Virus genome (UHGV): UHGV-1987335
Reading direction: 5' to 3' (one strand)
Length of the DNA stretch: 34,290 nt
Source: a virus
In this document: positions 20,701-26,700 of the stretch, piece by piece
How the letters are laid out: every line of letters begins with the position of its first letter
Numbering within the stretch: position 1 is the first letter of the stretch
Program-made: the position numbers

Positions 20701-23700
20701 ATTTTCTCTGGCAATCTCGCTTATAGGTTTTACCGTCGTTTGTATAGCAGACAACGCATTATTTAACCTCACATCGTCCAGTATACTTTGGAAACTTACC
20801 CCCTCGCTTGCTAGACGGCGATGTAATGTAGAAACAGAAATGTAGAGATATCGAGCAACCTTGTTTGCTGTCCATTTTGTGCCGGGTTCGGATAGCAGCA
20901 GGTTATAACAACGACTTATCAATGATTGTTTACTATATGATAAAAGTAAATGATTAACATGATTCACTCCTAACGAAAGTAGAACGCCCATTGCTAAGTG
21001 CTCCTGAATTTTAGTTGAGAAGCCTCGGGAAACAGATGTTTTTAGTTGCTCCCAACAATATATTAACTCAGGATTCTGAGGTAAAAAGAAACTTGTTTTG
21101 TTACGTATTTGATCAGTTACCGTATAAAGTTTTTGGAAACTCTCAATTAAATCAATGGGTAAGTAAAGCATTTCTGCAAGATAAAGCCCTGCTTCAGGAT
21201 AATTCTCAATATAAAATTCATAACCACAAGGAAATAATATTATTTGATTATTATCAACAGTTAAAGTATGCGTCTCCCAATTGATAACTTTCTTTCCCTG
21301 ACGGATACGACACAAAGCTGGCATAAGAGGCTTAACCCTATGAATCTCATGATGTTTATGCATCCGTATTTCTTCGATCTTTAAGTTAGTCTTACCTCTT
21401 GCCAGCATACTCTCACCCTACTTTATCTCATAAACTGGTGTTATCTCAGCGGTTGCGATTTTATTAGCATTAAGCATATAACCAACTAACGCTCCGCTGG
21501 AGTTAGAATCTACAGGAATCTTTTCAGTTTTTAGAGCCCATACTTTAAACTGGTAATGATGTGGTTTATCTCCTTTAGGAGGACATGCGCCACCAAACCC
21601 AGCATAGCCAAAATCATTTCGGCCTTGAACAGCACCAGTCGGCAGTTTTGTTCCATCACGTCTCCCTGCATCAACGGGCAAATATGTTACTGTTGCTGGA
21701 ATATTAACAACAGTCCAATGCCACCAACCACTGCCTGTAGGTGCATCTGGATCATATACAGTTACGGCAAAGCTTTTGGTACCTTCAGGAACACCAGACC
21801 AGGTTAATGAGGGCGATGTATTACCACCTTCACACCCAAATCCAGAAAAGACATGAGACGTTGTAAGTTGCTCTCCTGTTTTTATTTCATTACTAGTGAC
21901 CTGAAATGCTGCAGCCTGCGCAGAAAATGTTATGAATGCCAATACAGTTGAAACGATAAGTGTTTTCATAAAAACCTCTTTGTTATGACCTATCGTTATT
22001 TTATTTGATATTCCTTTATCTCATTATGCATAAAGGCGCAATGTTCATGCAAAAGCAATCACAATTGTACCCCCAACTCAATTATTTGCCACAATATACA
22101 CAAAGCACATTGATACTATCTAAAAACTCTGCTTTATTATTAGTAATACCTACGAAAGTCGGTGTTATTTTTTAACCTACCATTCAAAATACGTGACATA
22201 CACCATTTTGCTCATAATAATTTGTCACGTATTTTCAGTATTTGAATCTGCGACCAAGAGTTCTCACCTAACAAATGATTAAGATTGTATAGCTCATTTA
22301 CTACCCCAATACAGCCGTACAAAACTCGCTTGTGGGAGCAAACAAAGTAATTACCCATTAAGTTTCGTCAAAGATAATTAATTCTGTCTTGCACTTTATC
22401 ACCATAGCATAACTTAAAATCCGAGATCATTATTTAGAAATAAATCTCACCATCAACCATATATTTGAGAGCACTTATCGCCTGCTGGGCGGATATTACT
22501 TTCATTAAAGGATAGTGTTTAAAAACAATGCCATTCATAAAATAGATATCACAGGTTTTATTATCCGTATTAATTATGATTTTTTCGAATGTTTTATAGG
22601 CAAGTGTACGGCATAACTCTCGTCCATTTTTACTGGTTAAGTCAATAGCATAAAAATCACTGAATGAATTTACACCTTTACTCTTCAAAGTTTTCAATGA
22701 TACCGAAGCCCTTCGTAATTCCTTATCTAATAGTCTTATTTTCTCTGCTATAGCGGTAACTTCAGGCGCGACAGACAATGCAACGATTAAATTATTAATT
22801 TTCATCTGAAGCTCAATAATTTTTAACTCTAAAGTTTCATTAGCATCTTTCTTGTTTTCAACTGGTTGAATTTTGCTACAATTAAAAAGCAATTCATTAA
22901 TGATATTATAATCAACCAAATCTCTTTTTATTGATGGCCTGTCACATCGATGTAATCTTCTCATCGGACAAACATAATAGCCATGCAAACTTCCAGATAC
23001 CGCATGAACAATCATGGTATTACCACAAGCCTCACACTTCATAACTGTTCGAAGTAGATTTATTAGCATAGGATTCTTGCTACTATTGCTAATACCAAAA
23101 GGTGCCAACCGAATTTCCTGTACAGCGTAAAACAAATCATCTGATATGACTCTGGGATAATAGCCAGCGATTTCACTTATCCCTTTCCCTCTTGCACGAT
23201 ATGAAGGTACGCATATACCTATCAGAGCTTTATTCGCTAATAATTTTTCAATTACAGAAGGTCCCCATGCACTTTCTTTTCCTGAGAAATTCTTTACAGC
23301 ATGATCATTTAAATACTTGGCTATTGCATTCAATGAGCGCCTTTCCATCCTGAGTTTAAAAATTATCTCAATAGTTTTCACCCTGTCGGGGTCTGGAACA
23401 AAAGCCGTTCTTTTGTCATCTAAGGAGAGCCATCTCGGACAAGACGCCGTCATAATCGTACCTGATTCCAGTGCATCCTGCCGTTTTTTCTTCCATGATA
23501 ATTTAACCCGACTTGACTTTATCTCGCTTTCTTCATTTGCCCTTTGTGCTATAAGTATGGCTTTTATTAATGAATATGGCTCATTCAAAGAGTCAATATT
23601 ATAGACTGTATTGTCGCAAAGAGTTATAACATCAATACCGTGATTCAAAATCAATTTCAGACGTTCAATCGCTTCACCGACTTTTTCTCTTGAAAGTCTG

Positions 23701-26700
23701 TCCAGACTTTCAACTAACAATGTAGTTCCTGGCAATATATAACCATGCTCTATAGCATCTAAAAATTCCGAAAAAGCTCCTGATTGTGCATGCTTTCCTT
23801 TGAATGCACTTAATCCTAAATCTTCATATGTTATGGTATCAAGATAATAATCACTATTTACCTTTAACCATTCAGCAATAAGTCTTCTCTGTCGGTTTAA
23901 TGAGTCGCCAGACATCTGACCTGGTGATGAAAATCGCATATATGCTATGGCTTTTTTCATGGTGACACCTGCTAACGTATGCTTTTATAAACCTTAGTGG
24001 TGGGATATAATTTTTGTTTAATTTTTATTTAAAAAGACAATTAAGGTCACATTATCTTGAATATACAACAATAATCGTATTGCAATTTTCTTACGCCATA
24101 ATCTTGAAAGCACAAAAGAATACATAAAAAATAAAGACATTAACAAAAAGCATAAAACGAGGCTCATATAAATATAAGAGCCTCCATATTTTAGTCGTTT
24201 AGAAACAAATTATTTTAATGTGGTGTGCTTCGTGACAATAAATTAATAACCAACACACCGGCACAAATCAACATCATGCCTATAATGGCTGGCAGGTCCA
24301 GCCGTTGGCAGAAAAAATCCCCATGACAGTAAGCTAATCAGGACAATACCGACTCCTGACCAGATACCATAAGCAATCCCTGTAGGAATATAAGCCAGCG
24401 TCTGAGCTAATAACCAGAATGATGCACAATAACAAATAATTGTACCAACAGATGGCCATAACCGTGTAAAACCTTCTGAAAACTTCATTAAGGTTGTACC
24501 AATGACCTCTGCAAGTATTGCACCACCAAGATAAATATAAGGGTTCATAGCATATTCTTTCCTGTTCAAACTGGAGAGAATTGTACTACAGTTTGAACTC
24601 AACTCACCTGTTTCATCATTGTGTTCCCATTGATGTTCTTTTATATACCCTCAGTACCCGTTTCATCGCGGCACTCTGGCGACACTCCTTAAAAATCAGA
24701 TTCGTGCTCACCTTTCCTTCCCGTTCTTCTCTGGTAGCGAACCGGTAATACACCGTTCGCCAGACCTTACCATCAACGACCAGGATTCTGGTTACGGTTG
24801 CACCTGTTACCGCGGCAACGTCCTGTGCACAGAAGCTCTTATGCGTCCCCAGGTAATGAATAATTGCCTCTTTGCCCGTCATACACTTGCTCCTTTCAGT
24901 CCGAACTTAGCTTTGATTTCTGCGATCTTCGCCAGAGCCTGTGCACGATTTAGAGGTCTACCGCCCATGACAGGAAGTTGTTTTACTGGTTCAGGTATCG
25001 CCTCACCACGGTTAATTCGCGCGGTCATACAGGACAGTTCATCGGCAGCCTTGCGCCGTAATTCCGCGTCAGTCAGCGCATTGGCCCGCATGTTCTGGTA
25101 CAAGTTGGTAACCAACCAGTAATGCGCGTTCGATTTCCACGGATAAGACTCTGCATCCGGATACAGGCCACGCTTCCGGCAATACTCGTAAACCATATCA
25201 ACCAGCTCGCTGACGTTTGGCAGCCCGGCGTTAACAGATGCTTCTTCCCGGCACCAGGCGACAAACTGCCCGGGTGATGGCAGGAATGGTCGATTCTGCC
25301 GACGGGCTACGCGCATTCCAGCGTTAACCTGTTCCATTGTGGTGATCCCGTTTTCCCGGAAAGCCAGAACCCACTGGCGGCGGATTTCGTTCAGTTCATT
25401 CTGGTCACGGTTAGCCAGGCTCGCCGGGAAAGTTGCCAGTAACTGGCTGAACACACCGTTGATGATCTGCGCTACCTGCTGTACCTGTGGCTTTTCGTCG
25501 TACTGTTCCGGCATGTTGTTGGCGATCCGGCGCATCTGCTCACAGTCAAAGTTAACCATCTGTGCGGCGATGTTTTTCATAGCTCCACCCCGTAAATCCA
25601 GTCAGTGTTCGTCAGGTCGAGTTTTGGTTTGCCGGCTGTCACGCCAGCCTGTTGCTTGTTTCGGTTGATTTCGAGCTGGGTCCACTTGTCGCGGAGTTTG
25701 GCCGGACTTAGCACGTTACCGGACCAGAAGTTGTCCTGGCATGCCCAGCGGAACAGCACGCACATGTCGCGGTGGTTACGTCCGTCACGTTCACGCATCA
25801 GGCGGATATCGTTAGCCCACCCTGCAAAATTCGGTTTTCTGGCTGATGGCGCGATGGTCTTCACCATGTCAAACATCCACTCTGCGGCGGTCAGGTCTTC
25901 TGCTGTCCCCCACTTGCTGCCGCTCTGAATTGCAGCATCCGGTTTCACCACAGGAAGATCGTTTTCTGGTTGGTCAGAGGATTCGCCAGAATTCTCGGAC
26001 GAAAAAGGTTTTATATTGTCTTTTGTTAGTTTGTCTTTTGTGTTTACCTGATTCGGGTAAACGCCTTTACCTGATTTGGGTAAACTTTTTTTACCTGATT
26101 CAGGTAAATTTACCTCTTTCAGGTAAACTTTATTTTTCTTACCTGATTCGGGTAATGTTGACCATTCACTGACCACATTATTAATGCCGGTATTCCGCCC
26201 GCTCTGAATAAAAATCCCACGCTTTACCAGAACACTTTTTGCAGCAGAACACTTGTGCGGCAATATCCCGGTCAACTCGGAAAGTTGCTCGTTGCTCACC
26301 CAATCCAGTTTTTTATTAAAGCCATATGTTTTGCGCATGACAGCCAGGAAGACCAGAAGCTGGTGCTGTGTTAATCCGGCCAGCATCACAGCTTCCAGCA
26401 ACTCATTTGCAATGCGCGTATAACCATCATCGAGATCTGCCACACGCGGCTCCTTTTGTGCCGCATCCGGCACTGGAAAATTGAATATCTCAGCAGTGTT
26501 TGCCATAATTCCTCCCGCAATGAGTGTGTTACGATTTGCACCTGAAAGTCGGTTCTGTTCCCGCAGACCGACTTTCGCCATTTTTGAACCTGTCATATTG
26601 CCCCCAGCATGGTGGTGACCATCGCCATCAATGGACCAGCCAGATCCGGGTCCACTCGAAACATCGACACAATGCCTTCACTCATCTCCTTCAGTTTCTG

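What the first reader, a model, noticed from the sequence alone, without database searches (positions are those of the whole stretch)
22434..23960. Large serine recombinase inside a prophage that already has a tyrosine integrase
The 508-aa ybcK-like ORF has the N-terminal resolvase domain and zinc-ribbon/coiled-coil architecture of large serine recombinases (serine integrases). The prophage has its own xis-int pair at the far end. The recombinase sits in an AT-rich block with emrE, ybcL and ybcM wedged between ren and the nin genes. That suggests a nested integrative or invertible element, or a second recombination system controlling cargo genes.
Basis: partly seen in the sequence, partly recalled or inferred. 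Interest (0 to 1): 0.72.

Follow-up and report, generated by a model that had tools for sequence, protein, structure and literature searches.

The report
Orphan serine integrase gene ybcK
This is ybcK, an already catalogued E. coli prophage gene for an intact, well-conserved large serine recombinase; it travels as a stand-alone cargo gene in a swap-prone slot of lambda-like phages, and nothing in the sequence shows that it moves or flips the DNA around it.

Summary
Window 22434-23960 (-) encodes the 508-aa YbcK of a full-length DLP12-type lambdoid prophage at argU. It has all three large-serine-recombinase domains, the invariant catalytic residues, a four-Cys zinc ribbon and a coiled coil. Its predicted fold matches full-length serine integrases.

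The AT-rich block (about 20581-24650) is not one nested element. It is a composite of separately assorting cassettes (emrE; leader+ybcK; ybcL-ybcM) in the hypervariable ren-ninB slot. Across 5,426 E. coli genomes the cargo downstream of ybcK varies, with breakpoints 9, 66, 285, 310 and 486 bp after the stop codon. The far breakpoint is always the same (about 20578-20580). I found no flanking att sites, no invertible-segment repeats and no empty site.

The gene is not a relic. dN/dS is 0.06-0.08. It occurs in 1,424 of 5,426 genomes and in 11 isolated phages.

Relatives at 39% identity are demonstrably integrases. They sit at the end of 7-10 kb defence islands that split hofB, with an AG crossover 58 bp upstream of the recombinase gene.

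Best reading: a selectively maintained, probably active orphan recombinase moron whose substrate is unknown. The gene is already known; interest is modest.

The parts
22434..23960 (-). ybcK: 508-aa large serine recombinase. Catalytic domain about res. 1-165 including helix E, recombinase domain about 175-290, zinc-ribbon domain with embedded coiled coil about 300-508.
   Evidence: dN/dS 0.06-0.08 among alleles
23961..24207 (-). ybcK leader. The 128 bp nearest the gene (23961-24088) are more conserved than third codon positions. It overlaps the poorly conserved small ORF ylcJ (24018-24167). K-12 literature places a Rho-dependent terminator in this untranslated region. A weak dyad is centred about 68 bp upstream of the ATG (about 24005-24052), a position analogous to attP of the hofB-island relatives, but it is not statistically significant.
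   Evidence: 7.8% variable columns against 12.4% at third positions; PMC4150792; 14/24 symmetric; shuffle maxima average 13.7
24159..24184 (-). Hairpin GAGGCTC-N12-GAGCCTC followed by a T-run on the minus strand: a likely intrinsic terminator of emrE that separates emrE from the ybcK unit.
   Evidence: read from the sequence; best dyad in the leader scan. Not reported by the simple terminator scan, because its loop exceeds 8 nt.
24215..24548 (-). emrE (SMR efflux pump), frameshifted in this window. It lies immediately upstream of ybcK in every ybcK-bearing E. coli locus examined.
22125..22433 (-). 3' segment found only in the DLP12/K-12 architecture (675 genomes). It contains a perfect 13-bp inverted repeat with a 24-nt spacer (22186-22198 / 22223-22235). 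The repeat folds as a hairpin followed by a U-run (-18.9 kcal/mol, z -2.56). It is probably the ybcK terminator. It is att-like in size (50 bp) but is absent from the other ybcK architectures.
21418..21969 (-). ybcL (periplasmic PEBP/RKIP-like protein): a separate cargo module.
   Evidence: occurs without ybcK at the fliE locus
20611..21408 (-). ybcM (AraC-family regulator): travels in the same module as ybcL.
20518..20580 (.). Recurrent mosaic boundary. A conserved hairpin (20518-20527 / 20537-20546) plus ...AAAATCAAA lies upstream of ylcH. All alternative cassettes and all deletion variants end here.
24616..24882 (-). ren, the conserved phage gene at the other edge of the slot. Homology with cassette-free prophages resumes at about 24640-24655. 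This copy has a 36-bp in-frame deletion.
33127..34290 (+). intD, the prophage's tyrosine integrase, next to tRNA-Arg (argU) just beyond the window end.

Best explanation
ybcK is an intact, selectively maintained large serine recombinase. It is carried as a self-contained single-gene cargo unit (a 'moron': own leader, gene, short 3' flank) in the hypervariable ren-ninB slot of DLP12-type lambdoid phages.

The surrounding AT-rich block is a patchwork of independent cassettes (emrE; ybcK; ybcL-ybcM). It was built by ordinary lambdoid mosaic recombination and nested deletions. It is not an element that YbcK inserted or inverts.

Phage integration at argU is done by the tyrosine integrase IntD.

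YbcK descends from a clade whose members integrate small islands through an attP placed directly upstream of the recombinase gene. It probably still catalyses serine-type site-specific recombination on a substrate that has not been identified.

The gene is co-directional with the pR early operon, and K-12 literature places a Rho-dependent terminator in its leader. From these I infer that it is largely silent in the lysogen and is read through under N antitermination after infection or induction.

- **Shown:** protein architecture, conservation, modularity of the block, absence of detectable att or inverted-repeat structure, integrase role of relatives.
- **Inferred:** catalytic activity, timing of expression, existence of a target site.
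For: **Architecture and catalytic residues.**

**Purifying selection.** dN/dS is 0.06-0.08 at dS 0.12-0.17 among five alleles.

**Prevalence.**
- The gene is near full length in 1,398 of the 1,424 E. coli genomes that carry it.
- It is present in 12 records (11 named phages) of isolated Escherichia phages, among them PhiR34_1, Perceval and Turner.

**Modularity of the block.**
- Architecture A: emrE|ybcK|ybcL|ybcM (window, K-12, PhiR34_1).
- Architectures B, D, E, F: emrE|ybcK followed by other cargo.
- Architecture C: emrE|ybcL|ybcM without ybcK.
- Breakpoints differ on the ybcK side and are fixed at 20578-20580 on the other side.

**Single-gene units elsewhere.** Homology between copies in different contexts covers only the gene plus at most about 220 bp upstream and at most about 70 bp downstream. 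Contexts include prophage nin regions, prophage tail ends and plasmid cargo regions.

**Relatives are integrases.** Removing the island, and keeping one AG, restores hofB in four genera.

**Leader.** It is conserved, and a Rho-dependent terminator has been reported there (PMC4150792).
Against: - No recombination substrate was found, so activity is inferred only from conserved residues and selection.
- The candidate dyad in the leader is no better than chance in this AT-rich DNA.
- The constant linkage of emrE and ybcK, and the variable cargo always lying downstream of ybcK, would also fit a decayed 'recombinase plus cargo' island.
- Only representative rows of large hit lists could be read, so rare rearranged loci could have been missed.
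- Strong purifying selection on a gene with no visible role in the phage is itself unexplained.
Confidence: 0.62

Rival explanations
1. Second integration module. The conserved leader just upstream of ybcK contains an intact attP, and YbcK can integrate the circular phage genome into a secondary bacterial attB. This might happen when argU is occupied or IntD fails, giving these phages two routes to lysogeny.
For: - Relatives at 39% identity integrate islands through an attP whose crossover lies 58 bp upstream of the recombinase ATG.
- The proximal 128 bp of the ybcK leader are more conserved than third codon positions.
- The best non-hairpin dyad in the leader is centred at -68.
- The gene is intact, under strong selection, and carried by infectious phages.
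- It lies in the early-right transcript, the time when an integrase is needed (orientation).
Against: - The emrE-leader-ybcK junction is uninterrupted in 1,402 E. coli genomes, and no class of hits breaks inside the leader.
- The dyad is not significant: 14/24, against shuffle maxima averaging 13.7.
- Every ybcK prophage inspected has its own tyrosine integrase at a standard site, argU, icd or ybhC.
Confidence: 0.15
2. Decayed recombinase-plus-cargo island. An ancestral small island (ybcK at one end, cargo downstream, as in the hofB islands) inserted into the nin region of a lambdoid phage. Its att sites have since eroded, and its cargo has been swapped or deleted. The reader's 'nested integrative element' would then be historically right but no longer mobile.
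For: - The layout matches the hofB islands: the recombinase is first and reads into variable cargo.
- Cargo downstream of ybcK differs between lineages (ybcL-ybcM, alpha/beta hydrolase, P22AR-C fragment plus hypothetical ORFs), while the distal end is fixed at 20578-20580.
- GC is low throughout.
Against: - The fixed distal end is also the boundary in prophages that have no ybcK at all, so it is a general mosaic junction and not a ybcK-specific attR.
- ybcL-ybcM exist with emrE but without ybcK.
- No emrE|ylcH empty site exists.
- The proximal breakpoints are scattered.
- Strong purifying selection on ybcK is not expected for a dead element's integrase.
Confidence: 0.13
3. Self-mobile single-gene element. 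The roughly 1.8-2.1 kb unit (leader, recombinase, short 3' flank) moves by itself between prophage slots and plasmids, like a minimal serine-recombinase insertion sequence.
For: - Homologues are solitary in very different contexts: nin region, tail-fibre end, plasmid cargo regions and an ICE-like region.
- Homology between copies in different contexts is confined to the gene plus short flanks.
Against: - Unit boundaries differ from pair to pair: 68, 127, 210 and 247 bp upstream, and 0-70 or 310 bp downstream.
- The unit ends show no terminal inverted repeats (9/23 matches by eye on the sequences).
- Within E. coli the unit has one context only, always after emrE.
Confidence: 0.07
4. DNA invertase controlling neighbouring genes or tail fibres, in the manner of Gin, Cin, Pin or a shufflon recombinase.
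For: Several homologues lie right after tail-fibre and tail-fibre-assembly genes, or beside a PilV-like gene. PHROG 125 'DNA invertase' matches the catalytic domain.
Against: - No inverted repeat pairs of at least 18 nt occur around six such homologues, apart from weak chance-level pairs in one locus.
- None in the window block exceeds 25 nt at 72%.
- The protein has the full integrase-type C-terminal domains, not the small Hin/Gin HTH.
- All E. coli copies of the block that were read have one orientation.
Confidence: 0.03

Closest known systems
YbcK of E. coli K-12 cryptic prophage DLP12 (annotated 'recombinase family protein' / putative recombinase)
   Same: It is the same gene. Identity to K-12 copies is 99.8-99.9%, with the same emrE-ylcJ-ybcK-ybcL-ybcM order.
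   Different: Here it sits in a complete DLP12-type prophage with replication, head and tail genes, not in the truncated K-12 remnant. emrE is frameshifted and ren carries a 36-bp deletion in this copy.
Phage-type large serine integrases (Bxb1, PhiC31, Listeria LI/A118, TP901-1)
   Same: Same three-domain architecture, catalytic residues, zinc ribbon and coiled coil, with full-length structural matches.
   Different: Sequence identity is only 14-19%. The gene does not sit at a prophage end next to attL or attR. The host phage uses a tyrosine integrase. No attP/attB pair and no directionality factor were identified.
hofB-targeting defence islands of Mixta, Serratia, Leclercia and Rahnella
   Same: The recombinase is a 39%-identical relative with the same domains. 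It also has a short conserved upstream region and variable cargo downstream.
   Different: Those islands have exact ends, an AG crossover and a restorable target gene. The ybcK block has none of these.
Lambdoid 'morons' in the nin and b regions (for example bor/iss, lom, the nmpC-type porin)
   Same: An independent, low-GC unit between conserved phage genes, present or absent among close relatives, and found in the same two accessory regions in other genera.
   Different: Morons usually encode lysogen-fitness factors. A full-length site-specific recombinase is an unusual moron.
Small serine invertases of E. coli lambdoid prophages (PinE of e14, PinQ, PinR)
   Same: A serine recombinase coexisting with a tyrosine integrase in one lambdoid prophage (my own knowledge of these prophages).
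   Different: Those proteins are about 190 aa, with an HTH domain and a flanked invertible tail-fibre segment. YbcK is an integrase-type protein with no invertible segment.

Membership tests
Large serine recombinase (serine integrase) protein family | N-terminal resolvase-type catalytic domain with the Ser nucleophile and conserved Arg/Asp residues | tested here: met
   Pfam PF00239, E 5.5e-19. R9, S11, D87, R88 and R91 are invariant in 23 relatives. By my reading, these correspond to gamma-delta resolvase R8, S10, D67, R68 and R71.
Large serine recombinase (serine integrase) protein family | Recombinase domain plus zinc-ribbon domain with an embedded coiled coil, C-terminal to helix E | tested here: met
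   PF07508 and PF13408 score above their cut-offs. Four invariant Cys. AF2 helices 346-427. Full-length Foldseek matches to 9dxd, 9iu2, 9tep and 4kis.
Large serine recombinase (serine integrase) protein family | Catalyses conservative recombination between specific sites with a 2-bp crossover | not testable with these tools
   Shown only for 39%-identical relatives, by in-silico reconstruction of the hofB junctions. No assay for YbcK was found in the literature.
Prophage or island integrase in situ (element bounded by attL/attR) | The recombinase gene lies next to an element end, and the element is bounded by hybrid sites that share a dinucleotide and carry inverted P half-sites | tested here: not met
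   ybcK is internal to the prophage. The block and unit ends show only an AATAAT microhomology and no inverted half-sites. Breakpoints are scattered.
Prophage or island integrase in situ (element bounded by attL/attR) | An empty target site exists in related genomes | tested here: not met
   Related prophages carry other cassettes in the slot. No emrE|ylcH junction exists in 5,426 genomes apart from two deletion variants.
Nested invertible element (Gin/Hin/Pin type or shufflon) | A segment flanked by inverted crossover sites next to the recombinase gene, with both orientations found in populations | tested here: not met
   No qualifying inverted repeats. The block has a single orientation in all E. 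coli hits read.
Lambdoid moron | A unit inserted between conserved phage genes, with deviant base composition and present/absent among close relatives | tested here: met
   GC 0.355 for ybcK against about 0.50 for the phage. Alternative cassettes in the same slot. ybcK is absent from the fliE-locus copy of emrE-ybcL-ybcM.
Lambdoid moron | Own promoter and terminator (autonomous transcription unit) | tested here: inconclusive
   Hairpins lie upstream (24159-24184) and downstream (22186-22235) of the unit. The promoter scan is at chance level. K-12 literature reports a Rho-dependent terminator in the leader.
Known anti-phage defence systems | Match to a PADLOC defence protein model | tested here: not met
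   No PADLOC hit for YbcK, YbcL, YbcM or YlcJ.

The most novel reading that the evidence does not exclude
YbcK is an active second site-specific recombination system of DLP12-type lambdoid phages. An intact attP would lie in the conserved leader, about 45-90 bp upstream of the gene. This would let the phage, or DNA carrying that leader, integrate at a bacterial site still to be found. Alternatively it could let the phage capture and exchange the cargo cassettes that vary immediately downstream of ybcK.
Probability: 0.2. Interest if true: 0.6.

Novelty: already known. Interest (0 to 1): 0.3.

Why it matters
ybcK is in about a quarter of complete E. coli genomes, including K-12, BL21 and O157:H7, and in infectious lambda-like phages. 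It is under strong purifying selection, yet I found no assigned function for it.

If it is an active integrase with an unrecognised target, that would matter in three ways:
- It would be a native Gram-negative serine integrase, of interest as a genome-engineering tool.
- It would be a second route to lysogeny or cargo exchange for medically relevant phages.
- It would be a possible source of rearrangements in laboratory strains.

If it is only a passenger, the finding is ordinary. A side result is that the same recombinase clade mobilises small Abi/Shedu defence islands into hofB in several enterobacterial genera.

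Tried and rejected
1. **Clean insertion boundaries or target duplication for the whole block.** Rejected. Related prophages have other cassettes in the slot, and homology ends at gene-boundary linkers.

2. **A single crossover point downstream of ybcK that would indicate cassette exchange.** O157 and Perceval seemed at first to share a break at window 22393. Finer comparison showed nested breakpoints at 9, 66, 285 and 486 bp, and a P22AR-C gene remnant.

3. **ybcK inserted into an antirepressor-type gene.** Rejected. No N-terminal half of that gene lies on the other side.

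4. **The 13-bp perfect inverted repeat as the YbcK att site.** It is confined to one architecture (675 genomes). It folds as a terminator-like hairpin, and the other ybcK alleles have no counterpart.

5. **Motifs shared by the flanks of homologues.** None found.

6. **Tail-fibre or shufflon inversion.** No inverted repeats.

7. **Defence-system membership.** No PADLOC hit.

8. **A plasmid 'with versus without' comparison for the Duffyella homologue.** The flanks are mosaic, so no empty site could be defined.

9. **Dyad-symmetry scan of the leader.** The best site, at -68, is not above shuffled controls.

10. **PDB search by sequence.** It found nothing. Fold comparison was needed.

11. **Literature.** Only a terpene-tolerance phenotype (PMC7181518) and use of the ybcK leader as a Rho-dependent terminator model (PMC4150792). 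There are no recombination data.

Full report
**What the window is.** The window is 100% identical to E. coli O1:H42 strain CLSC36 and near-identical to hundreds of other E. coli chromosomes. The RefSeq annotation of that record shows a complete DLP12-type lambdoid prophage. It has tail, head and lysis genes (essD/rrrD/rzpD), quuD, rusA, ybcO, ninE, ybcN and ybcM-ybcL-ybcK-ylcJ-emrE. These are followed by ren, P, O, the immunity genes, the red genes and intD next to tRNA-Arg. Window coordinates equal locus L001 coordinates plus 399.

- ORF 22434-23960 (-) encodes 508 aa.
- Pfam Resolvase, Recombinase and Zn_ribbon_recom all match above their curated cut-offs. PHROG 95 'integrase' matches at E 1.4e-119.
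- In a 23-member family alignment R9, S11, Q15, D87, R88 and R91 are invariant, as are four cysteines.
- An AlphaFold model (mean pLDDT 82.7) has a long helical hairpin at 346-427.
- Its best PDB fold matches are full-length serine integrases bound to att sites: 9dxd/9dxh, Bxb1, PhiC31 and the Listeria integrase 4kis. A sequence-only PDB search had found nothing.
- The block from about 20581 to 24650 has 36% GC, against 47-50% around it.
- The tyrosine integrase intD is at 33127-34290. The adjacent xis-like ORF is annotated as an incomplete pseudogene.

**The block is a patchwork, not one element.** I searched 5,426 complete E. coli genomes with the two flanks joined. This found 111 prophages that keep ren and ybcN close together. 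They hold about 800 bp of unrelated small ORFs in between, not an empty site. Homology with the window stops just after a conserved hairpin plus AAAATCAAA at about 20575-20580. It resumes at the 3' end of ren at about 24640-24655.

Searching with the block itself revealed distinct architectures:
- **A** (window, K-12, phage PhiR34_1; 671 genomes): ren|emrE|ylcJ|ybcK|a 245-bp unique segment|ybcL|ybcM|ylcH.
- **B** (O157:H7 prophage at icd): emrE|ybcK, then 66 bp of a P22AR-C gene remnant and 254 bp of unique DNA.
- **D** (phage Perceval / LF82): emrE|ybcK|285 bp of the same remnant|an alpha/beta hydrolase on the other strand.
- **E and F**: emrE|ybcK|a P22AR C-terminal ORF|another hypothetical gene.
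- **C** (about 2,300 genomes): a chromosomal copy beside fliE with emrE|ybcL|ybcM at 92% identity and no ybcK. Window 22125-24207 is replaced there by 4 bp.

The breakpoints on the ybcK side therefore lie 9, 66, 285, 310 and 486 bp after the stop codon. The other breakpoint is always 20578-20580. That same point is the boundary in prophages with no ybcK at all, and in two variants where a deletion runs from inside ybcK to ylcH.

This is the signature of lambdoid mosaicism and nested deletion against a shared linker. It is not the signature of a site-specific crossover. The ends of the 2,083-bp ybcK unit share only an AATAAT microhomology and no inverted half-sites.

**No att-like or invertible structure that generalises.**
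- The only strong dyad in the block is a perfect 13-bp inverted repeat with a 24-nt spacer at 22186-22235. It exists only in architecture A (675 genomes). It folds into a hairpin followed by a U-run, and the other alleles have no counterpart. I read it as the ybcK terminator of that lineage.
- No inverted repeats that could bound an invertible segment occur here or around six homologues placed next to tail-fibre or pilV-like genes.
- The emrE-leader-ybcK junction is uninterrupted in 1,402 genomes.

**The gene is nevertheless alive.**
- It is present in 1,424 of 5,426 genomes, nearly always at full length.
- It is present in 12 records of isolated Escherichia phages, with the same local organisation.
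- Among five alleles with dS of 0.12-0.17, dN/dS is 0.06-0.08.
- The 128 bp directly upstream of the ATG vary at 7.8% of columns. Third codon positions vary at 12.4%, and the distal leader at 26%.
- The overlapping small ORF ylcJ is not conserved: it carries a 10-bp deletion in O157 and is a pseudogene in L016. The constraint is therefore probably regulatory or a binding site.
- K-12 work uses this untranslated region as a Rho/NusG-dependent terminator that keeps ybcK silent (PMC4150792).
- ybcK is co-directional with cro-O-P-ren-...-Q. From this I infer read-through under N antitermination during infection or induction. This step is inference.
- The only phenotype I found is altered sabinene tolerance on overexpression or deletion in BL21 (PMC7181518).

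**What relatives do.** Homologues of 40-60% identity and about 509 aa occur across Enterobacterales. They are always solitary. Their contexts include:
- prophage nin regions: Pantoea dispersa (a prophage with its own tyrosine integrase) and Atlantibacter RC6;
- prophage tail-fibre ends: Atlantibacter, Yersinia, Erwinia, Ewingella, Citrobacter;
- an ICE-like region;
- positions between ordinary cargo genes on Duffyella and Pantoea plasmids.

Where near-identical copies sit in different contexts, homology covers only the gene, at most about 220 bp upstream and at most about 70 bp downstream.

A more distant branch (39% identity, 541 aa) gave a clear answer. In Mixta, Serratia fonticola, Leclercia and Rahnella the recombinase is the first gene of a 7.4-10.2 kb island. 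The island carries AbiTii, Shedu and a small resolvase, and it splits the pilus ATPase gene hofB. Deleting the island while keeping one AG restores a 466-507-aa HofB reading frame (...TGHLVLSTLHTNS...) in all four genera. The reconstructed attP has imperfect inverted arms (ATTAGAGAG / CTCTCTTAT), and its crossover lies 58 bp upstream of the recombinase start codon.

This clade therefore contains working island integrases whose attP abuts the gene. By analogy a YbcK site would be expected in the conserved leader. The best dyad there, apart from the emrE terminator hairpin, is centred at -68. It is no better than shuffled sequence: 14/24 symmetric positions, against shuffle maxima averaging 13.7.

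**Verdict.** The structural interpretation (a nested integrative or invertible element made of the AT-rich block) is not supported by any junction, repeat or population polymorphism I could find. The softer idea of a second recombination system remains open.

The most probable description is an orphan but selectively maintained serine integrase gene. It is carried as a moron in a hypervariable slot, is descended from island integrases, and has an unidentified substrate. The gene is a long-annotated K-12 locus, so the feature is already known. The residual interest is that its function is still unassigned despite its prevalence and conservation.

Noticed in passing
L033 9943-17316 (also L032 9943-20184, L034 9943-20114, L035 9943-20168): Small defence islands (AbiTii x2, Shedu SduA, a small resolvase) inserted inside hofB in four enterobacterial genera. 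A YbcK relative lies at the island's left end. The insertion is exact: the crossover dinucleotide is AG, and the hofB reading frame is restored when the island is removed in silico.
   Followed up: yes
L011 6001-7920 (E. coli G12, between fliE and IS remnants/yedF); corresponds to window 20404-22124 plus 24208-24624: About 2,300 E. coli genomes carry a second, chromosomal emrE-ybcL-ybcM cluster (92% identity) beside fliE. It includes a piece of the phage ylcH region but no ybcK. It looks like a grounded fragment of an older lambdoid nin region.
   Followed up: partly
window 24215-24548 and 24616-24882: emrE is frameshifted in this strain (the C-terminus changes after ...SWGFF). ren lacks 36 bp in frame compared with other prophages.
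   Followed up: partly
window 20518-20580: A conserved hairpin plus AAAATCAAA upstream of ylcH is the common end-point of at least six different cassettes and of independent deletions. It appears to be a recombination or deletion hot spot of the nin region.
   Followed up: partly
L022 8163-9865 and L023 8148-9865: Ewingella lambda-like prophages carry umuD/umuC-like (ImpB/MucB family) genes between the tail-fibre genes and the YbcK homologue.
   Followed up: no
L018 3592-4388 (E. coli E2865): In a prophage without emrE or ybcK, the same ren/P-to-ylcH slot holds a full-length P22AR-C protein, a HEPN-domain gene and a small partner ORF. This may be a toxin or defence pair.
   Followed up: no
window 15168-15461 and 17236-18333 (from the L001 annotation plus 399): Other cargo genes of this prophage are the serum-survival lipoprotein gene iss (a bor homologue) and an intact nmpC/ompD-type porin gene.
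   Followed up: no
L009 8145-9812: In Citrobacter koseri the YbcK homologue is divergent from a 555-aa PilV-like gene (a faint Shufflon_N hit), in a region with TraD and MobA genes. No shufflon-type repeats were detected.
   Followed up: partly
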